A stretch of 10,948 nt of DNA from a virus (IMGVR_UViG_3300039313_000009); one strand, 5' to 3'. Counted from the stretch's first letter, positions 1 to 10,948 are shown. Numbers and translations: made by a program. The notes: generated from the letters alone by a model not told the origin.

Positions 1-94
1 CAAGGCATTTACGGGAGAAAAAATCGGCTCAAACATGAAGAAATGAAATGACTGAGTCAGCCGAGAAGAATTTCCCCGCTTATTCGCACCTTCC
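1..94 (+). mobile_element. IS5-type insertion sequence, terminal 94 bp of the transposase-distal end (terminal inverted repeat at 79..94); element body lies upstream of the window
   Basis: Bases 1..94 match from memory the 3' end of IS5, ending in cttattcgcaccttcc (reverse complement of the IS5 terminal repeat GGAAGGTGCGAATAAG). Bases 20..94 are a perfect reverse complement of 10874..10948. The flanking tetranucleotide CTAG (95..98) fits the IS5 YTAR target preference. Confidence 0.8.
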
Positions 95-111
95 CTAGAG
101 GCGGACGTTTT

Positions 112-1848
112 GTGGCAGAAGCTGTCGTTAAAGCTTTCAGCAGTGCGATCAAAGAAGGTTTTATCGAATATGAAAAACCATTCCTGATTGAGAGTGTTAC
201 GGATATCATAGGATCTGAGAGTGTTCAGGAATGTTTAAAATACCTTTCCGAACATGATAAGGTATTGACTATTTTCTTTGATCAGTTCGAAGAAGTCTTT
301 ATGAAAGAGGAACTATTCGGGCTATTTAAAGAATTTGAACGATTCGCACTCGATGTCTCGGCACTACAAAGCAATTTAGTTGTAGGGTTCTCATGGAGAA
401 CTGGTATTACTTTAGGGGATGAAAATCCAGCGTACTCAATGTGGAATCGGCTAAAAGATTATAGGGTTGAAAAGAAACTTGAGCCTTTTGATCTAAAAGA
501 TTCATCTAAATTAATTAATAGTTTCGAGCTAAATACAGGGTTTAAATTAAATAAACCTTTACGCACGCGTCTTATTCAGCAAGCTCAAGGTTATCCATGG
601 TTATTGAAAAAGCTTTGTATTCATGTATTCAAAAAACTAAAAGGAGGTATCTCACAGGATCAAATGTTGGTTAGTCAACTACAGATCTCAAATTTATTTC
701 ATGAGGATTTAGATAGGCCTGAAAAACAAAATTCATGTTTAAAATTTGTGGCAAAGAACTCTCCGATTAGTCAATATGAAGTTACTAAAGAGTTTGGGAG
801 TGATACTGTTTTAGAGCTAATTTCAGATAGGATGGTAATTAAAACAGGTGAAAAATTATCAGTGTATTGGGACGTTTTTCGAGATTACTTGAAAGGAAAT
901 GACCTTCCAGTTATACCATGGTCATATATGCCATCAACATCTCCGAAAATGGTTTTGTTAATTCTTGATGTTGTAAACTCGTTCAAAACCATTAGCTTGG
1001 ATGAACTGCAAACTAAACTAAAATATAGTCGGGGAACATTAATAAATGTTTTAATGGATTTGCAGTATTTTGTTCTCATAGACAGAGATTTAAATGGGAA
1101 TATAGTTTGTAAACAGACTATCACAAATGTCCCTGAGTTTCTTCGTGAGCATTTTAAGAGTCATAGTGTTTTGTTAGAATTGGCAGAGAATATTGTTGAT
1201 GCCGATTTAAGAAGAGTTCCTATCGATAAGTATGAATCTATAATAGCCCATACTTATAAGAATAAAGACGGTGGTTATCCTAAGTCTTATAGTTCAAAAT
1301 TATTGGCTTGGTTACAATTTACGGGGCTGATAGCGGTTATCGGGAAATCTGTGGTTATATATGATGGCGAGTTGTTTTCCCCAGCATTTGGGGCGATTGA
1401 TCTAGATAAAAGAGGGGCACGCAATAGAAGAGGATCACTTTTCTTAGCTGCTACTTCGCCAGAAAAAACACTCGAAGTTGCCGAGTATCTGTGCGCCAAT
1501 AAAAAAATGAGCCATTCATTCATTCAGGCGAATAAACATAGGAATGCAGTGCAGGATTTAATTTCTTTAGGTTTTTGTTCTCGACAAGATGATGGTGTGG
1601 TGATAAATAATAAAATAGAAGTTATATTAGAAAGCATCAGCCTTGAAAGGGCTTTAGCTAGGTTAGTCACTGAATCTCCAGCTATCAAAATATTAAATGC
1701 TTATGTAAATAAATTTGGCGATGATGATAAGAAAATGATGGGGGCAGCACTAGCAAAAGAACTTGAGAGAACATGGACACCTGCATCTACTACTAGATAT
1801 ATTTATGCACTAATGAGATATCGAAATTTCGCATTGGAAACTTTATAA
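112..1848 (+). CDS. STAND/AAA+-like NTPase, 5'-truncated fragment (IS5-disrupted; probably a pseudogene); winged-helix-like C-terminal region
   Basis: 578-aa ORF with Walker-B-like VLTIFFDQFEE near its start and a GxP-like QGYPWLL motif further on, but no P-loop anywhere. The reading frame stays open upstream of the GTG at 112 right through the IS5 junction (first in-frame stop at 49..51), so the P-loop region is expected to have been removed by the insertion. Stop TAA at 1846..1848. Confidence 0.5.
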   Translation: MAEAVVKAFSSAIKEGFIEYEKPFLIESVTDIIGSESVQECLKYLSEHDKVLTIFFDQFEEVFMKEELFGLFKEFERFALDVSALQSNLVVGFSWRTGITLGDENPAYSMWNRLKDYRVEKKLEPFDLKDSSKLINSFELNTGFKLNKPLRTRLIQQAQGYPWLLKKLCIHVFKKLKGGISQDQMLVSQLQISNLFHEDLDRPEKQNSCLKFVAKNSPISQYEVTKEFGSDTVLELISDRMVIKTGEKLSVYWDVFRDYLKGNDLPVIPWSYMPSTSPKMVLLILDVVNSFKTISLDELQTKLKYSRGTLINVLMDLQYFVLIDRDLNGNIVCKQTITNVPEFLREHFKSHSVLLELAENIVDADLRRVPIDKYESIIAHTYKNKDGGYPKSYSSKLLAWLQFTGLIAVIGKSVVIYDGELFSPAFGAIDLDKRGARNRRGSLFLAATSPEKTLEVAEYLCANKKMSHSFIQANKHRNAVQDLISLGFCSRQDDGVVINNKIEVILESISLERALARLVTESPAIKILNAYVNKFGDDDKKMMGAALAKELERTWTPASTTRYIYALMRYRNFALETL

Positions 1849-1857
1849 TTATTAAAT

Positions 1858-1877
1858 CATAGGGCGAAAGCCCTATG
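1858..1877. terminator. Bidirectional hairpin between convergent genes (NTPase fragment and integrase)
   Basis: Perfect 8-bp stem catagggc / gccctatg with gaaa loop, followed by a T-rich tract on the plus strand; it overlaps the integrase stop codon. Confidence 0.55.
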
Positions 1878-3060
1878 ATTTTACTTTTATACCCCACCAT
1901 GACATCAATTCTCTGCGTTGTTCTAAATAAATAGAACGATTATACGCCCGCCGTACTTCATTTTTATCTATATGCGCTAAAGCTGATTCTATAATATCGG
2001 AATTAAAACCAGACTCGTTCAACGCTGTGCTAGCTATAGAACGAAGCCCATGAGCAACGAGTTTACCGCCATAACCAATCCTTTTAAGAGCAGCATTAGC
2101 AGTTTGGCTATTCATAGGTTGTTTAGGATCATTCCTGCTGGGAAAAACATGTTCTCGGTGAGCGCTAATTGGCTTCATTACATCCAGAATCTCTAATGCC
2201 TGTGGTGATAAAGGAACAATGTGTTCCCGCTTAGCTTTCATCCGTTCGGCTGGAATAGTCCAGAGCTTCGTATCGAGATCGATCTCTGCCCAACGGGCAC
2301 CAGAGGCCTCAGAAGGGCGCACGAGCGTCAGGAGTTGCCATTCAATGAGACAGCGAGTCGGAACAGACAGATTTGACATGACTAAAGAACGCATCAGCTT
2401 CGGCAATTCTTCTGGCCGCAGCGTCGGCATGTTTTGTTTTTTGGGCTTCTCAAAGGCCATTCCAATACCTGATGCTGGATTGGCATCAATCAGACCAGTG
2501 TTTACGGCATAAATCATTATCTCGTTAATACGCTGCACTAGTCGACGTACAGTCTCAAGCGCTCCACGAGCTTTGATTGGTTCCAATGCTTCAACTAATA
2601 TTCGGGCTTTAATTTGCTGAACGGGGATCTCACCGATGGCAGGGAATACATCTTTCTCCAATGAGCGCCAAATGTCTTTTGCGTAATCAGGGGTAACGCT
2701 TTTACTTTTGAGCTGGAACCAGTTAGCGGCGACCATTGAGAAAATACTGTCCAGAGCGATTTGCTGCTGTTCCTCTGCAACTTCGGCCTGAATTTGTGGG
2801 TCAATTCCGTTGGCTAACAAGGCAAGGTAATCCGCTCTTAACCCTCGGGCGTCAGCAAGTGAAAGGGCGGGGAAAGCACCAAGCCCCATCATTGTCCGCT
2901 GTTTTGTCGCTGGACGTTGATAACGGAAACGCCAGAGCTTTTTCCCGCTGGTTTTCACTATCAGGAAAAGGCCATCGCCATCATGCAGAGTTAGATCCTT
3001 CTCTAACGCTTTAGCGCGAAGAACTTCGGTGTTGGTAAGGGGGCGTGTTGTCCGTGCCAC
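1873..3060 (-). CDS. int: P4-type tyrosine integrase (IntA/CP4-57-like family)
   Basis: 395-aa ORF. N-terminus MARTTRPLT..DGDGLFL..SGKKLWRFRY is typical of P4-like integrases; C-terminus has HGLRS and ALAH..VRRAYNRS motifs consistent with the tyrosine-recombinase active site. It lies about 185 bp downstream of an ssrA 3'-end repeat in the same orientation, as for ssrA/tRNA-associated islands. Confidence 0.9.
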   Translation of the reverse strand: MARTTRPLTNTEVLRAKALEKDLTLHDGDGLFLIVKTSGKKLWRFRYQRPATKQRTMMGLGAFPALSLADARGLRADYLALLANGIDPQIQAEVAEEQQQIALDSIFSMVAANWFQLKSKSVTPDYAKDIWRSLEKDVFPAIGEIPVQQIKARILVEALEPIKARGALETVRRLVQRINEIMIYAVNTGLIDANPASGIGMAFEKPKKQNMPTLRPEELPKLMRSLVMSNLSVPTRCLIEWQLLTLVRPSEASGARWAEIDLDTKLWTIPAERMKAKREHIVPLSPQALEILDVMKPISAHREHVFPSRNDPKQPMNSQTANAALKRIGYGGKLVAHGLRSIASTALNESGFNSDIIESALAHIDKNEVRRAYNRSIYLEQRRELMSWWGIKVKS

Positions 3061-3083
3061 TGTGGCCGCTCCTTCATGAATTG

Positions 3084-3129
3084 GTATACGCTTTTAGGTA
3101 TACATCCTACCGTATACCTAAACGTATAC
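3084..3129. repeat. Array of four GTATAC(C) motifs with 12-14 bp periodicity, directly upstream of the P4-type integrase start; candidate arm-type or regulatory sites
   Basis: GTATAC at 3084, 3098, 3112 and 3124; the last two copies are CGTATACC within a near-direct repeat. Confidence 0.4.
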
Positions 3130-3172
3130 CAATAATCACCGGATTTAGCCGGATGTTCTCGGACAACGACAG

Positions 3173-3214
3173 ACACAAAAAAGCCCGCAGGGCTTGTGCC
3201 ATGCGGGCTTTCTG
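3173..3214 (-). terminator. Rho-independent terminator on the minus strand (GC hairpin followed by a U-run), between the ssrA-derived repeat and the integrase
   Basis: Plus-strand aagcccgcagggctt (3181..3195) and alternative pairing gcccgca / tgcgggc (3183..3189 with 3202..3208). On the minus strand the hairpin is followed by TTTTTTGTG (complement of 3173..3180). Confidence 0.5.
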
Positions 3215-3245
3215 TACTTCACCGGACGTATCCGGATCATGATTT

Positions 3246-3275
3246 GGTGGAGCTGGCGGGAGTTGAACCCGCGTT
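3246..3275 (-). other. Attachment-site repeat: the 3'-terminal ~30 nt of the tmRNA gene ssrA (T-arm, acceptor 3' strand and CCA), without the rest of the gene
   Basis: The reverse complement of 3246..3275 reads acgcgggttcaactcccgccagctccacca, matching from memory the 3' end of E. coli ssrA. Sequence beyond 3275 shows no tmRNA-like continuation, so this is a partial copy (att direct repeat), not a functional gene. Confidence 0.75.
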
Positions 3276-3330
3276 CTATTAATGGTAAATAACTGTAATT
3301 TATAGCTTTTATTTGAAGTAGATCACATGC

Positions 3331-3377
3331 GTATCCTTTGTGGATACTTGAGGTATATGTTATATATAAAACATATA
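3331..3377. promoter_or_regulatory. AT-rich promoter region of the DarT-like operon with two palindromes (candidate operators)
   Basis: gtatcc-N5-ggatac at 3331..3347 and tatatgtt-N8-aacatata at 3354..3377, sitting 25-70 bp upstream of the ATG at 3403 among TATA-like hexamers. Confidence 0.4.
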
Positions 3378-3402
3378 TTTACATGAAGTAAATGGATGTT
3401 TT

Positions 3403-4026
3403 ATGACAATACAGGAAATAATTCAGCAACGTAATATTCGTAGCTTGTTTCATTTTACACATAGCGATAATCTAACTTCCATTTTAGATAATGGCCTTAT
3501 GTCTCGTTCAGAACTTGATAATGAAAATAATGAATATAATTATAATGATGAAGAAAGGATTGATGGTCATCCAGATGCGATTTGTTTGTCCGTAAGTTAC
3601 CCTAATGCAAAAATGTTTTATAAATATAGATGTTTAAAGCCTGGGGGCTGGGTTATATTAGAAATCAATCCATCTGTTCTTTGGGCTAAGGATTGCGCTT
3701 TTTATCCTACCAACGCAGCTTCGAATAACGTTCGTTTTATAAATATTGATTTGATGAAAGGAGCTGAGGCATTTAGTGCTTTGTTTTCAGAGAATGTTTT
3801 TGGGATTCAGAGAGATGTAAACCTTCCAAGTGAGTATACGACGGATGTTCAAGCTGAAATACTGGTATTTGAAAAAATTCCTCCCTCATATATTATAAGC
3901 ACTTTTCACCCTAACAAAGAATCTGCTGAACATTTCAAGAGATTATATCCACAGACAATACAGAGATCTTATGATAATCTTAATGCTAGAACATTTTATT
4001 CTCAGAGGCATTATTATTTAGGATAA
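3403..4026 (+). CDS. darT: DarT-like DNA ADP-ribosyltransferase toxin (DUF4433-type)
   Basis: 207 aa. LFHFTHSDNLTSILDNGL (residues 15-32) parallels the recalled DarT N-terminal motif (for example LFHITHMDNLPSILTSGL); QAEILVF (150-156) parallels the catalytic-glutamate motif; central CAFYPTNAASNNVRF resembles the conserved mid-region. AT-rich codon usage unlike the flanking prophage genes. Confidence 0.7.
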   Translation: MTIQEIIQQRNIRSLFHFTHSDNLTSILDNGLMSRSELDNENNEYNYNDEERIDGHPDAICLSVSYPNAKMFYKYRCLKPGGWVILEINPSVLWAKDCAFYPTNAASNNVRFINIDLMKGAEAFSALFSENVFGIQRDVNLPSEYTTDVQAEILVFEKIPPSYIISTFHPNKESAEHFKRLYPQTIQRSYDNLNARTFYSQRHYYLG

Positions 4027-4029
4027 GTT

Positions 4030-4719
4030 ATGGCCGTTAGACCTGTTTTCGTCCCTACAAACGCAGGGAACTTACTATCGATCACGAAGGATGTGGATTT
4101 TCCTTGGGCTCCTGGTATGTCTAAAACGCAAAAGCAAAAATCGATCAGGGCGTTACATACAGCAGCGAATGAGCAGGGATTGAACTCTTTGTTGGAAATT
4201 TCTAGTAAATCCGAAGATGCGCTGGGGGTAGCACTTAGTGCATTTAATCTAAGAATAAAGACGAAAAGACTTGGGAAAGAGTTTACAGTTGAATCTGCAT
4301 TTCAAGCAAGTAAAGTATTTGAAATGGGAGGACCATATGTCGATATCTTAGATAAAAGCTCGATAGAAGCAAAAAAAGATATGAGATTAAAGGAATCTGG
4401 GGGATTAGTTAACTTCAAATTTTATAATACAATATGGCCCATTGTCCCCAGGACTGCTTTTTATGATTGGTTATATTTGAGTGCGCTCAATCAAAACAAA
4501 AATCTAGCACTCCATCTATTAAATTTTGATGGATTTACTGATATTGAATTTAATCCAGCGAAATCTATTAATTGCCAAGCCAGAGCAGCTGCACTTTTTG
4601 TCTCTTTAGTAAGACGAAATATGTTAGATGATGTTTTATCTTCAAAGGATGGTTTTTTATCAAAATTAGCATCTCATTATGGTGTTGAAAATTATTCTAT
4701 TCAACATACATTGATATGA
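4030..4719 (+). CDS. Operon partner of the DarT-like gene: NADAR-like (YbiA/DUF1768-type) candidate ADP-ribosyl hydrolase antitoxin; no macrodomain signature
   Basis: 229 aa. Translationally coupled (3-nt gap, AGGA Shine-Dalgarno overlapping the upstream stop). LSAF..KEFTVESAFQASKVF aligns by eye with the YbiA motif FSNF..WPTSEHYFQAQKF, followed by SSIEAKKDM versus SSPMVAARM and a W...L..LL region. No DarG-like glycine-rich macrodomain motifs are visible. Confidence 0.5.
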   Translation: MAVRPVFVPTNAGNLLSITKDVDFPWAPGMSKTQKQKSIRALHTAANEQGLNSLLEISSKSEDALGVALSAFNLRIKTKRLGKEFTVESAFQASKVFEMGGPYVDILDKSSIEAKKDMRLKESGGLVNFKFYNTIWPIVPRTAFYDWLYLSALNQNKNLALHLLNFDGFTDIEFNPAKSINCQARAAALFVSLVRRNMLDDVLSSKDGFLSKLASHYGVENYSIQHTLI

Positions 4720-4721
4720 AT

Positions 4722-4745
4722 AATGGCCTGTAAAGGCCATTTTTA
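4722..4745. terminator. Bidirectional terminator hairpin between the DarT-like operon and the convergent lambdoid integrase
   Basis: Stem aatggcct / aggccatt with gtaa loop, followed by TTTT on the plus strand. Confidence 0.6.
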
Positions 4746-4751
4746 TCTAAA

Positions 4752-5921
4752 TTAATATCTATTTTTTCTATTTAAAGATGTATTTCCATCATATTCTTTG
4801 AGGTATGAGCCATAATGTCTAAATAACATCTCTGGTCCTTTATGACCCATTTGAACCGCAAGCCAAAACAGGTTTGCTCCCCGGCTGATATGGCTGGTGG
4901 CGAATGTATGTCTGGTTTGATATGGGTTTCTGTAACGAATACCTGCTTTCCGCAATGTTGGCACCCATGCTTTTTTTCTAATTGCATCAGCACTTGCCCA
5001 AGGCTTATTGGTCTTTGGATCTTCAAAGACTGTAGCATCCTTCATGAATGTAAATGGCTTCTGATTTATCAGCGCCAACATTGCATCTTCTGTCAGTTCA
5101 ACTTTACGAGTACCGGCTTTTGTCTTTGTTCCTTTGATAACACCGACAACACTTGCGCTCTGGACATGGGCAGTTTTTCCAACAAAGTCGATATCACGCC
5201 ATCGAAGGGCACATAATTCAGAACTACGCAGGCCTGTATGTATAGCGAACCGGAACAGATTCTCCCATTGTTTGTTTCCGGCTGCTGCTAGTAATGCATC
5301 AACTTCTGCTGGTGATAGCGGATCAACCACGTAGCTGCTTTCTGCTTCTGACTTATCACTTTGGTAGCGCGAAGCAGTTACCAACGATACGGGGTTAATT
5401 TGAAGTACCCCATCGGTTACGGCTTCATCAAGTGCTGACCGCAGGAAAGATAACTGGTTGCGAATTGTTTTTAAGGTCGTTTTCTGGCTTTGAATCCACG
5501 CTTTCAGGATTGCTGGTGTTAATTCACTTGCAGGGCAAATGTGGAGTGAGGCTAACGCACTACGGCATTTTTTATAACCACCAATCGTAGATGGTGAAAG
5601 TTTTCTCGTTTCGCAGATTTCAAGGTATTCGTCCAGGTACATTTTTACCGTTTTGCCTGCAGCAGCATTACCAAAAATTTTCAAACGAGCAGAACGGGGA
5701 AAATATTCCGCATAAATGAATGTTCCCCTTTCGATCTTATTATGAATTTCGCCGAGTGTGCGCTCGGCGTATTTAATGTTCTTTGGTGTTACTTCCAGAT
5801 TGGAAAGAGGCTCACGACATCTAACTCCTTTGTAGGTGAAAGTTATATTGATCGTTTCGCCCTGGCGGTGTTTCCTGATTGTTACGCCGCGCGGTAGTTT
5901 GAGCAGTTTTGTCTGGCCCAT
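4752..5921 (-). CDS. int: Lambdoid-type tyrosine integrase with an N-terminal arm-binding domain
   Basis: 389 aa. C-terminal motifs TRHTFAT, MGH and FRHYGSYL fit the R-H-R-Y tyrosine-recombinase active site. The N-terminus (KLPRGVTIRKH..ITFTYKGVRCRE) is arm-binding-like. GAGG Shine-Dalgarno 8 nt upstream; its 5' end overlaps the xis-like gene. Confidence 0.9.
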   Translation of the reverse strand: MGQTKLLKLPRGVTIRKHRQGETINITFTYKGVRCREPLSNLEVTPKNIKYAERTLGEIHNKIERGTFIYAEYFPRSARLKIFGNAAAGKTVKMYLDEYLEICETRKLSPSTIGGYKKCRSALASLHICPASELTPAILKAWIQSQKTTLKTIRNQLSFLRSALDEAVTDGVLQINPVSLVTASRYQSDKSEAESSYVVDPLSPAEVDALLAAAGNKQWENLFRFAIHTGLRSSELCALRWRDIDFVGKTAHVQSASVVGVIKGTKTKAGTRKVELTEDAMLALINQKPFTFMKDATVFEDPKTNKPWASADAIRKKAWVPTLRKAGIRYRNPYQTRHTFATSHISRGANLFWLAVQMGHKGPEMLFRHYGSYLKEYDGNTSLNRKNRY

Positions 5922-6088
5922 TTTGCAACCTCACTAAGATCAATCCACCTCTCCTTAACGCCTTCAACCTTTAAAACCTGAACACCTTCACGCCAAACAC
6001 CGCGCTGTACACGTTTGTTTATTGCTTCAGGAGTTTCGCCAGTTTCTTTGCAATAAGTTGAGATTGGAACACAATCGAGGTTCAGCAT
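5882..6088 (-). CDS. xis: Excisionase-like small DNA-binding protein (recombination directionality factor); start reassigned to ATG 6088 (the ORF track begins at GTG 6100)
   Basis: About 68 aa, immediately upstream of and overlapping the integrase 5' end, as is typical for xis-int pairs. GGAG Shine-Dalgarno 7 nt upstream of ATG 6088. Basic, helix-turn-helix-like composition. Confidence 0.55.
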   Translation of the reverse strand: MLNLDCVPISTYCKETGETPEAINKRVQRGVWREGVQVLKVEGVKERWIDLSEVAKWARQNCSNYRAA

Positions 6089-6147
6089 ATGTTTCTCCAC
6101 TTAGCCCGCTGCACACGGGCAGTAATATCAAATTCCAGTCCTGATAA

Positions 6148-10000: not shown

Positions 10001-10846
10001 TTACTTTGTAAGTTCTAGAACTCGTTGAGCCAGCCCTTTAAATTGTTCGTTAAAGGCGTCTCTGCTTGATTTCATTGTATTTAAGGCATGCCCAAATTGC
10101 CCTGAATCGCGAATTTGCTGATCACTGATGGAGAAAACAGGTGTCGCTAGTTGTTGGCTTATTGCGATTAATGAGTTGAAATCGGAAATATGCGCAAGAT
10201 CATAGGCTGATAAATCTCCACTGACTGTTGTTTTGTTAATTGCATGTTGCACTTTATCTCGTGGAATTATGCAGGTAATTTTTTCTAGATTTGGCACTAA
10301 GATCGAATCAACAGCATCACGGATAGCTGCCATCCATTTTTCGAAAGATTTTACAGGTGCTCCTTTACGCGGCCTGTATCTCTGCTGAATCATACCTAGA
10401 AACTGCGGTGCATTTTTAATTGATTGTGAAGAGTTACCATCATTATTTTCTTTAAATAATGCTAATTCTTTGTGCCAGCGAGGTATATTTTTTGAGAGAG
10501 AGCGAATTGCTTGCCAGCAAAAAAAGTCTGGAGCTACAGGTACGATAAAATAGTCACTTGACATGAGAACTACTTCATTTAAACCTCCAACATTAGGGCT
10601 GAGATCATAAAGAATGTAATCAATATTATTCTTCATGGCGATTAGCTGTAATATTTTTGGCAGGTTCCCTGGTATATTTCTTGTAGCAGGAATACCAGCA
10701 GCAATTTTTAGAGAAACACTTATCTGTGAATCTAAGTCCGAAACATCTAAATGTCCGGGAAGAAGCAGAAGGTTTTCATGCAGTGTAGGGTGTAATTTTC
10801 CCGTTTCTTTTTCAAGGTATGCTTCAGGTTGTCCGCCATTAATCAA
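10001..10846 (-). CDS. ParA/MinD/Soj-superfamily ATPase, 5'-truncated fragment (IS5-disrupted; frame open to 10873; deviant Walker A missing)
   Basis: The segment DYILYDLSPNVGGLNEVVLMSSDYFIVPVAPDFF matches the ParA core (hydrophobic strand, Asp, then ...P...S/T...AL..AD..hhP). The track start is a TTG and the frame continues open into the IS5 junction; no KGGxGKT P-loop is present. Confidence 0.65.
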   Translation of the reverse strand: MINGGQPEAYLEKETGKLHPTLHENLLLLPGHLDVSDLDSQISVSLKIAAGIPATRNIPGNLPKILQLIAMKNNIDYILYDLSPNVGGLNEVVLMSSDYFIVPVAPDFFCWQAIRSLSKNIPRWHKELALFKENNDGNSSQSIKNAPQFLGMIQQRYRPRKGAPVKSFEKWMAAIRDAVDSILVPNLEKITCIIPRDKVQHAINKTTVSGDLSAYDLAHISDFNSLIAISQQLATPVFSISDQQIRDSGQFGHALNTMKSSRDAFNEQFKGLAQRVLELTK

Positions 10847-10873
10847 ATATTCTACAATAGGTCCAAGAGTTAA

Positions 10874-10948
10874 GGAAGGTGCGAATAAGCGGGGAAATTC
10901 TTCTCGGCTGACTCAGTCATTTCATTTCTTCATGTTTGAGCCGATTTT
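10874..10948 (-). mobile_element. IS5-type insertion sequence, terminal 75 bp of the transposase-distal end (terminal repeat at 10874..10889), inverted relative to the left copy; element body lies downstream of the window
   Basis: ggaaggtgcgaataagcgggg... at 10874 onward is the exact reverse complement of 20..94. The flanking tetranucleotide TTAA (10870..10873) fits the YTAR target preference. Confidence 0.8.

What the first reader, a model, noticed from the sequence alone, without database searches (positions are those of the whole stretch)
3403..4719. DarT-like ADP-ribosyltransferase with a non-macrodomain partner, lodged between a prophage integrase and its att repeat
The first gene carries the hallmark DarT (DUF4433) motifs (HFTHxDNLxSIL, the QAE catalytic-glutamate motif and the central FxxxNxAS motif), which in this family indicates a DNA-base ADP-ribosylating toxin. 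It is translationally coupled to a 229-aa partner that lacks the DarG macrodomain signature. The operon is markedly more AT-rich than the flanking prophage genes and occupies the integrase-to-att junction, a classic hotspot for anti-phage cargo. If the partner is a NADAR hydrolase this is a divergent DarT1-NADAR (DarTG1-type) module; if not, it is an unrecognised antitoxin architecture for DarT.
Basis: partly seen in the sequence, partly recalled or inferred. Interest (0 to 1): 0.85.

Follow-up and report, generated by a model that had tools for sequence, protein, structure and literature searches.

The report
Known DarT1-NADAR (DarTG1) defence operon
This is the already well-studied E. coli DarTG1 toxin-antitoxin anti-phage system (a guanine ADP-ribosylating toxin and the NADAR enzyme that reverses it), carried as cargo at the end of a prophage, so it is real but ordinary.

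Summary
Two tightly spaced genes sit at 3403-4026 and 4030-4719. Gene 1 matches Pfam DarT (E 4e-23). Gene 2 matches Pfam "DarT1-associated NADAR antitoxin" (E 1.4e-89) and has no macrodomain.

It is not a divergent or unrecognised architecture. It is the model system itself. The antitoxin is 229/229 identical to E. coli C7 NADAR. The toxin is 202/207 identical to E. coli C7 DarT1, whose crystal structures (8BAQ/8BAR/8BAS), guanine-N2 specificity, toxicity, rescue by NADAR and phage defence are published. Every residue mutated in that work is unchanged here. RefSeq already names both genes in 29 complete E. coli genomes.

The context claim also holds. The operon lies between a lambdoid-prophage integrase (4752-5921) and a 30-nt copy of the ssrA (tmRNA) 3' end (3245-3274), which is the att core. 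Its GC content is 34.6%, against 43-47% for its neighbours. In other E. coli genomes the same slot holds AbiL or uncharacterised gene sets, so it is a variable cargo slot.

Verdict: already known, low interest. The minor leads are a rare toxin allele (G82, I115) and the other cargoes found in the slot.

The parts
3403..4026 (+). darT1: DarT1 toxin, a guanine-specific ssDNA ADP-ribosyltransferase (207 aa)
   Evidence: Pfam DarT PF14487, E 4e-23. PDB 8BAQ E. coli C7 DarT1, E 3e-137. 202/207 identical to the strain C7 gene product. Residues F18, D49, R52, D54, S63, M71, F72, N104 and E152 are conserved. All 30 columns that are invariant across 32-40% identical relatives are retained.
4019..4032 (+). 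Gene junction: AGGA (4019-4022) inside the end of darT1, TAA stop 4024-4026, 3-nt spacer, ATG 4030
   Evidence: Read directly from the sequence. Coupling is inferred, not tested.
4030..4719 (+). NADAR antitoxin (DarG1), a guanine-ADP-ribose hydrolase (229 aa)
   Evidence: Pfam NADAR-DarT1 PF22397, E 1.4e-89. PDB 8BAT G. lovleyi NADAR, E 3.5e-71. 229/229 identical to E. coli C7 NADAR. E88, K95, K115, K116, R119, K121, D171, E173 and K178 are present.
4722..4741 (.). Hairpin plus T-run between the convergent NADAR and integrase genes; terminator-like
   Evidence: Terminator scan: 8-pair stem AATGGCCT/AGGCCATT followed by TTTAT. Consensus match only.
3275..3402 (+). AT-rich upstream region that travels with the operon; promoter not identified. 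Contains a palindrome at 3354-3375
   Evidence: Identical in strains H2 and C7 but unrelated in EC1722-1. No sigma-70-like site passed the scan here. Palindrome I11.
3245..3274 (-). 30-nt copy of the ssrA (tmRNA) 3' end: the att core marking the prophage boundary
   Evidence: Identical to the last 30 nt of ssrA of strain H2. Rfam tmRNA 3'-end alignment at high posterior probability. It is the only segment shared by all four genomes in alignment A2. The intact ssrA lies at the far end of the tandem array in strain H2.
4752..5921 (-). Tyrosine integrase of the lambdoid prophage that carries the operon
   Evidence: Pfam Arm-DNA-bind_2 and Phage_integrase. Annotated 'site-specific integrase' next to DarT1-NADAR in all listed genomes. 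The family is present in 396 complete E. coli genomes.
5882..6100 (-). Excisionase-like small ORF overlapping the start of the integrase gene
   Evidence: ORF list. The equivalent gene in strain C7 is annotated as excisionase.
1873..3060 (-). P4-type integrase of a separate, neighbouring satellite integrated at the same ssrA site (not part of the operon's own element)
   Evidence: Pfam Arm-DNA-bind_3, Phage_int_M and Phage_integrase. NCBIfam PRK09692, 591 bits. Next to sid/delta/psu in EC1722-1.

Best explanation
The two genes are a DarTG1 (DarT1-NADAR) toxin-antitoxin anti-phage module, the same system as the published E. coli C7 model.

DarT1 uses NAD+ to attach ADP-ribose to the N2 amino group of guanine in single-stranded DNA, and this blocks replication. 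The co-expressed NADAR protein hydrolyses that linkage and so keeps the toxin harmless in uninfected cells. On infection by a sensitive phage such as RB69, toxin activity prevails. Phage DNA becomes ADP-ribosylated and no progeny are made.

The operon is accessory cargo of a lambdoid prophage integrated at the 3' end of ssrA. It occupies the slot between the att core and the integrase gene.

What is shown here: gene identity, conservation of all tested catalytic residues, operon layout and genomic placement. What is taken from the literature on the near-identical C7 proteins: chemistry, toxicity, neutralisation and defence. What is inferred: that this particular allele (G82, I115) is active, and that the operon is expressed from the prophage.
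For: - Pfam DarT (82.6 bits) and NADAR-DarT1 (299.6 bits).
- The toxin matches PDB 8BAQ/8BAR/8BAS 'E. coli C7 DarT1' at E 3e-137. The only active-site difference is the engineered E152A in the crystal construct.
- 202/207 and 229/229 identity to the strain C7 genes.
- All residues mutated in Schuller et al. 2023 are unchanged, in both proteins (residue list from PMC11543638).
- That paper reports three things for E. coli C7: DarT1 lethality rescued by the cognate NADAR, guanine-N2 ADP-ribosylation of ssDNA, and NADAR hydrolysis of the modification. It also states that C7 DarTG1 was the model used for phage defence.
- PMC11257639 reports about 5 orders of magnitude of protection by DarTG1 against RB69.
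- RefSeq annotates the same pair in 29 complete E. coli genomes.
- The toxin-then-NADAR gene order is conserved in 32-40% identical relatives from other phyla.
- Placement at the att-int junction.
Against: Nothing contradicts it.

Caveats:
- The window's toxin carries G82 and I115, where the common RefSeq allele has D82 and L115. This exact allele was seen on only 6 contigs. Both positions vary in distant relatives, but activity of this allele has not been tested.
- No promoter was identified upstream.
- The operon was not found in any deposited phage genome, so carriage by an active phage is not shown.
- The primary defence paper (LeRoux et al. 2022) is not in the held library and is cited only through papers that cite it.
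Confidence: 0.95

Rival explanations
1. A decayed copy. The rare G82/I115 substitutions have attenuated or inactivated the toxin, leaving in effect an orphan NADAR antitoxin on a degrading prophage.
For: G82 replaces an acidic or polar residue next to the invariant W83, and this allele is rare: 6 contigs against hundreds for the antitoxin allele. The surrounding region is being eroded by IS5, with two genes truncated.
Against: The ORF is full length. All 30 family-invariant columns and all 9 experimentally tested active-site residues are intact. Positions 82 and 115 vary across the family (D/E/T at 82; I/L/A/K and others at 115). The antitoxin is perfectly conserved, as expected if the toxin is still dangerous.
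Confidence: 0.05
2. The module acts mainly as an addiction or stabilisation device for the prophage (post-segregational killing on loss), and phage defence is incidental.
For: It is a type II-like toxin-antitoxin pair located on a mobile element right beside the att and int genes.
Against: Published work on the same system shows strong, phage-specific defence, and phages encode dedicated counter-defences (AdfA, AdfN) against it. The same slot in a sister prophage carries AbiL, another defence system. The two roles are not mutually exclusive.
Confidence: 0.1
3. A DarT2-type thymidine-specific ADP-ribosyltransferase, as the RefSeq product name 'DarT ssDNA thymidine ADP-ribosyltransferase family protein' would suggest.
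For: The RefSeq and Pfam family names mention thymidine.
Against: The partner is NADAR, not a macrodomain DarG. The toxin scores only 28.5 bits against the NCBIfam toxin_DarT equivalog, whose cutoff is 150. The 98% identical C7 enzyme was shown structurally and biochemically to modify guanine N2. The name describes the family, not the specificity.
Confidence: 0.02

Closest known systems
E. coli C7 DarTG1 (DarT1-NADAR): Schuller et al. 2023, Mol Cell (PMC11543638; PDB 8BAQ/8BAR/8BAS); the phage-defence model of LeRoux et al. 2022 (cited there as ref. 28)
   Same: Same species, same operon and same genomic slot next to the same integrase family. The antitoxin is 100% identical and the toxin 98% identical. 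All catalytic residues are the same.
   Different: Five toxin substitutions relative to C7 (window residue first): Y47C, G82D, I115L, S189Y, F198L. Two of them, G82 and I115, also differ from the common RefSeq allele WP_016243807.1. The neighbouring elements differ: a P4-like satellite with an IS5-truncated nSTAND1 gene here, a different decayed integrase island in C7.
Geobacter lovleyi DarT1-NADAR (PDB 8BAT for the NADAR)
   Same: Same two-gene architecture and the same Pfam families. The NADAR aligns over residues 1-212 at E 3.5e-71.
   Different: A distant orthologue from another phylum, with much lower sequence identity.
DarTG2 (DarT2 with the macrodomain antitoxin DarG; Thermus aquaticus, Mycobacterium tuberculosis, EPEC)
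   Same: The toxin has the same ART fold family (Pfam DarT), and the logic of reversible ssDNA base ADP-ribosylation is the same.
   Different: In DarTG2 the antitoxin is a macrodomain and the target is thymidine N3. Here the antitoxin is NADAR and the target (shown for the 98% identical C7 enzyme) is guanine N2. The macrodomain test was not met and the toxin falls below the NCBIfam toxin_DarT cutoff.
Defence-cargo hotspots of temperate phages and satellites (for example the P2/P4 hotspots of Rousset et al. 2022, recalled from memory and not read here)
   Same: A fixed slot at the edge of an integrated element holds interchangeable defence genes: DarTG1, AbiL and others.
   Different: Here the slot is the ssrA-att to int junction of a lambdoid prophage family. 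I did not check whether this specific slot has been described.

Membership tests
DarTG1 (DarT1-NADAR toxin-antitoxin) | Toxin carries the DarT/DUF4433 ADP-ribosyltransferase domain | tested here: met
   PF14487, 82.6 bits against a cutoff of 22.5, covering profile positions 1-183 of 201. PADLOC DarT, 46.3 bits.
DarTG1 (DarT1-NADAR toxin-antitoxin) | DarT1 active-site residues, including the catalytic glutamate (E152) and the DarT1-specific aspartate/arginine pair (D54/R52) | tested here: met
   F18, D49, R52, D54, S63, M71, F72, N104 and E152 are all present. H17, N48, D49, R52, D54, N104 and Q150-A-E152 are invariant across distant relatives. The residue list comes from PMC11543638.
DarTG1 (DarT1-NADAR toxin-antitoxin) | Antitoxin is a single-domain NADAR of the DarT1-associated subfamily, not a macrodomain | tested here: met
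   PF22397, 299.6 bits against a cutoff of 27, covering profile positions 1-210 of 212, with no other domain found. 100% identical to C7 NADAR.
DarTG1 (DarT1-NADAR toxin-antitoxin) | NADAR catalytic residues | tested here: met
   E88, K95, K115, K116, R119, K121, D171, E173 and K178 are present. These are the positions mutated in PMC11543638.
DarTG1 (DarT1-NADAR toxin-antitoxin) | Bicistronic operon with the toxin gene immediately upstream of the antitoxin gene | tested here: met
   3-nt intergenic spacer. The same order is seen in Jeotgalibacillus, Vreelandella and Mucispirillum relatives, whose downstream ORFs score 227-310 bits against PF22397.
DarTG1 (DarT1-NADAR toxin-antitoxin) | Toxin is lethal or bacteriostatic and is neutralised by the cognate NADAR | not testable with these tools
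   Published for E. coli C7 proteins that are 98% and 100% identical (PMC11543638). Not tested for the G82/I115 allele.
DarTG1 (DarT1-NADAR toxin-antitoxin) | ADP-ribosylation of guanine N2 in ssDNA, reversed by NADAR | not testable with these tools
   Shown by crystal structures and assays for C7 DarT1 and NADAR (PMC11543638).
DarTG1 (DarT1-NADAR toxin-antitoxin) | Confers phage defence | not testable with these tools
   Reported for DarTG1 against RB69, about 5 logs (PMC11257639). C7 is named as the defence model in PMC11543638, citing LeRoux 2022.
DarTG2 (DarT2 with macrodomain DarG) | Antitoxin contains a macrodomain | tested here: not met
   No Macro family hit at E<=0.01 in Pfam. No PADLOC hit of any kind for gene 2.
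DarTG2 (DarT2 with macrodomain DarG) | Toxin reaches the NCBIfam toxin_DarT equivalog cutoff | tested here: not met
   NF048013: 28.5 bits against a cutoff of 150, with only residues 15-44 aligned.
Prophage cargo at an att-int junction | A duplicated host target sequence (att core) bounds the element next to the cargo, with a tyrosine integrase on the other side | tested here: met
   30-nt ssrA 3' core at 3245-3274. Integrase at 4752-5921. The flanks on the two sides of the core vary independently among genomes. In strain H2 an intact ssrA with the same core lies at the far end of the array.

The most novel reading that the evidence does not exclude
The operon itself is the known DarTG1. What the evidence leaves open concerns its location. 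The slot between the ssrA att core and the integrase of this lambdoid prophage family (396 of 5426 complete E. coli genomes) may be a cargo-exchange hotspot. If so, its other occupants would include defence systems not yet described. Those seen were a STAS-like three-gene set, a ParA-family three-gene set, a 577-aa AAA ATPase with a Dam methylase, and a single 259-aa protein. A second, weaker possibility is that the rare G82/I115 DarT1 allele alters sensitivity to phage inhibitors such as AdfA.
Probability: 0.3. Interest if true: 0.4.

Novelty: already known. Interest (0 to 1): 0.1.

Why it matters
It matters little for discovery. The toxin structure, its chemistry (guanine-N2 ADP-ribosylation), antitoxin function, phage defence and phage counter-defences have all been published for this very system from E. 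coli C7, and public annotation pipelines already name both genes.

The value of this check is mainly negative: the 0.85 score should be withdrawn.

Two small by-products remain. One is a clean description of the operon's position as the first cargo inside an ssrA-integrating prophage. The other is a short list of alternative cargoes in the same slot that could be screened for defence activity.

Tried and rejected
- I looked for the intact ssrA at the far end of the prophage in strain C7. There the prophage abuts torT, apparently through a rearrangement, so C7 could not show the second att copy. Strain H2 did show it.
- ARAGORN finds no tRNA or tmRNA in the window, because only 30 nt of ssrA are present. 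Rfam at the E-value threshold and a direct comparison found the fragment.
- A partial Rfam IsrM hit at 3177-3254 (39 bits against a gathering score of 376) is just the terminator hairpin and was dismissed.
- I first tried to identify the window-end repeats with the ISKpn26 copies in loci L001 and L004 and found no match. They are IS5 proper.
- The operon has no megablast match in 50,697 deposited phage genomes.
- The promoter scan gave no site in 3275-3402, and overall counts were at shuffle level.
- The primary defence paper (LeRoux 2022) could not be read by DOI or PMC id.
- Several loci were not exported to the Python sandbox, so those comparisons were done with the built-in aligners.
- The truncated ParA-like gene at the right end is only distantly related to the ParA-family cargo in RM13322 (27% identity over 106 aa), so there is no link between them.
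- I did not run structure prediction or the large protein-database searches. A crystal structure of a 98% identical protein and a 100% identical characterised antitoxin make them unnecessary.

Full report
**1. The observation**

The window contains two same-strand ORFs at 3403-4026 (207 aa) and 4030-4719 (229 aa). They are separated by a TAA stop, three bases and an ATG. An AGGA lies 7 nt upstream of that ATG, inside the end of gene 1.

- H17-F-T-H-S-D-N-L-T-S-I-L28
- Q150-A-E152
- F100-x-x-x-N104-A-A-S107

The operon's GC content is 34.6%. The integrases on either side are 47.1% and 43.5%, and the prophage early genes are 47.4% (profile).

**2. What the genes are**

Gene 1 matches Pfam DarT (PF14487) at E 4e-23. 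Gene 2 matches Pfam NADAR-DarT1 (PF22397, 'DarT1-associated NADAR antitoxin') at E 1.4e-89 over profile positions 1-210 of 212, and no macrodomain is found.

Against solved structures:
- Gene 1 hits only 'E. coli C7 DarT1' (8BAQ/8BAR/8BAS) at E 3e-137. The one active-site difference is the engineered E152A of the crystal construct.
- Gene 2 hits G. lovleyi NADAR (8BAT) at E 3.5e-71.

Against the strain C7 chromosome:
- The toxin is 202/207 identical and the antitoxin 229/229 identical.
- The toxin differences, window residue first, are Y47C, G82D, I115L, S189Y and F198L.
- Against the commoner RefSeq allele found in strains AR_0369 and H2, only G82D and I115L differ.

Megablast finds the operon in 29 of 5426 complete E. 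coli genomes. RefSeq annotates it there as 'DarT ssDNA thymidine ADP-ribosyltransferase family protein' plus 'DarT1-associated NADAR antitoxin family protein'.

**3. What is already published for this system**

Schuller et al. 2023 (PMC11543638) used E. coli C7 DarT1 and NADAR as their model. They report:
- DarT1 is lethal in E. coli and is rescued by the cognate NADAR.
- DarT1 ADP-ribosylates guanosines in ssDNA but not in dsDNA.
- Crystal structures of DarT1(E152A) show ADP-ribose linked to guanine N2.
- Alanine substitutions at F18, D49, R52, D54, S63, M71, F72, N104 and E152 impair the enzyme.
- NADAR hydrolyses the modification. The mutants tested were at E88, K95, K115, K116, R119, K121, D171, E173 and K178.

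All of these residues are unchanged in the window's proteins.

The same paper states that C7 DarTG1 was the representative used for phage-defence work, citing LeRoux et al. 2022. PMC11257639 reports that DarTG1 reduces RB69 plating by about five orders of magnitude, and that T-even phages counter it with AdfA and with an orphan NADAR, AdfN.

I could not read LeRoux et al. 2022 directly.

**4. Is this allele intact?**

The exact toxin sequence occurs on only 6 contigs in the large protein collection. The antitoxin sequence occurs on 634.

I aligned the toxin with six relatives of 32-40% identity, from Jeotgalibacillus, Vreelandella, Halomonas, a gammaproteobacterial MAG and Mucispirillum:
- Position 82 is D, E or T in these relatives.
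- Position 115 is also variable.
- The window protein retains all 30 invariant columns.

In the three relatives I examined, the ORF just downstream is also a NADAR-DarT1 protein, scoring 227-310 bits. I therefore infer that the allele is active. That is an inference, not a test.

**5. Context**

The stretch 3245-3274 on the minus strand is identical to the last 30 nt of ssrA and aligns to the 3' end of Rfam tmRNA. ARAGORN reports nothing because only this fragment is present.

I aligned 3061-3420 with three other genomes:
- The ssrA core is the only segment shared by all four.
- Left of the core, the window matches EC1722-1, which has the same P4-like satellite. It does not match H2 or C7.
- Right of the core, the window matches H2 and C7, which carry DarT1-NADAR. 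It does not match EC1722-1.

The core is therefore a true boundary between two independently acquired elements. DarT1-NADAR is the first cargo inside the lambdoid prophage, whose integrase (4752-5921) and excisionase-like gene (5882-6100) follow. In strain H2 the intact ssrA, with the same core, lies at the far end of a tandem array of integrated elements.

**6. The slot is variable**

This integrase family is present in 396 complete E. coli genomes. The contents of the slot between the ssrA core and the integrase in the genomes sampled were:

| Strain | Slot contents |
|---|---|
| Window, C7, AR_0369, H2 | DarT1-NADAR |
| EC1722-1 | AbiLi + AbiLii (PADLOC 336 and 100 bits) |
| Ec-042-T5-ESBL | 577-aa AAA ATPase + Dam methylase |
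| R10 | one 259-aa hypothetical protein |
| MS8345 | hypothetical + STAS-like + hypothetical |
| RM13322 | ParA-family protein + two hypotheticals |

This supports the 'cargo hotspot' remark and is the only mildly new lead. I did not check whether this specific slot has been described before.

**7. The rest of the window**

- Bases 1-97 and 10871-10948 are the same IS5 end in inverted orientation. The sequence is multi-copy, with 12 places in K-12 derivatives, and lies just past an IS5 transposase gene.
- The flanking tetranucleotides are CTAG and TTAA. From memory, these fit the YTAR target preference of IS5.
- The left IS5 truncates an Mrr_cat-nSTAND1 NTPase. Window 112-1848 equals residues 336-913 of the 913-aa protein of EC1722-1 (577/578 identical). 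In that strain the gene sits between psu and int of a P4-like satellite.
- The right IS5 truncates a ParA-family gene that is 358 aa long in IHE3034. There it lies next to a prophage repressor gene.

**8. Verdict**

This is a bona fide copy of the already characterised E. coli DarTG1 system.

- Novelty: already known.
- Interest: 0.1.
- Confidence that this is a DarTG1 module working as published: 0.95.

Noticed in passing
window 1-97 and 10871-10948: Both ends of the window are the same IS5 terminus in inverted orientation (78 nt, 99% complementary), abutting CTAG and TTAA. The 10.8-kb segment is therefore bracketed by two IS5 copies. This is probably why the contig ends here, and it could reflect two insertions or an IS5-mediated rearrangement.
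   Followed up: partly
window 98-1848 (+): The C-terminal 578 aa of a 913-aa Mrr_cat-nSTAND1 NTPase, truncated by IS5 (577/578 identical to residues 336-913 of WP_000113630.1 in EC1722-1). In EC1722-1 the intact gene sits between psu and int of a P4-like satellite, which is a defence-hotspot position. It has no convincing PADLOC hit, so it may be an uncharacterised STAND-type defence gene.
   Followed up: partly
window 3245-3274 to 4752; loci L005 6307-8258, L013 1706-4418, L014 3641-4420, L015 2899-4472, L016 2264-4186: The slot between the ssrA att core and this prophage integrase family holds different cargo in different E. coli genomes. Seen: DarTG1, AbiL, an AAA ATPase with a Dam methylase, a single 259-aa protein, a STAS-like three-gene set, and a ParA-family three-gene set. 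Several of these are unannotated candidates for defence systems.
   Followed up: partly
window 10001-10870 (-): A ParA-family (AAA_31) gene that has lost about 69 N-terminal codons to IS5. It is intact (358 aa) in 109 complete E. coli genomes. In IHE3034 it lies next to the repressor gene of a lambdoid prophage integrated beside a tRNA-Arg gene.
   Followed up: partly
window 1873-3274: Two mobile elements are integrated in tandem at ssrA: a P4-like satellite (integrase 1873-3060) and the lambdoid prophage. The ssrA fragment is followed on the satellite side by a strong terminator hairpin (3181-3211), which gave a spurious partial Rfam IsrM hit.
   Followed up: yes
window 3403-4026, codons 82 and 115: The DarT1 allele has G82 and I115 where the other E. 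coli genomes examined have D82 and L115. The exact protein is on only 6 contigs in the 15-billion-protein collection, while the antitoxin allele is on 634.
   Followed up: partly
locus L003 (strain C7, 2899000-2948000): In the reference strain C7 the DarTG1-bearing prophage ends next to torT, not next to ssrA, and carries the T3SS effector genes nleG and espJ. This suggests an inter-prophage rearrangement in that genome.
   Followed up: no
window 3354-3375: An AT-rich palindrome (TATATGTTATATATAAAACATA) lies about 30-50 nt upstream of the darT1 start codon. It could be an operator or part of the promoter. No sigma-70 consensus site was detected in the 128-nt upstream region.
   Followed up: no
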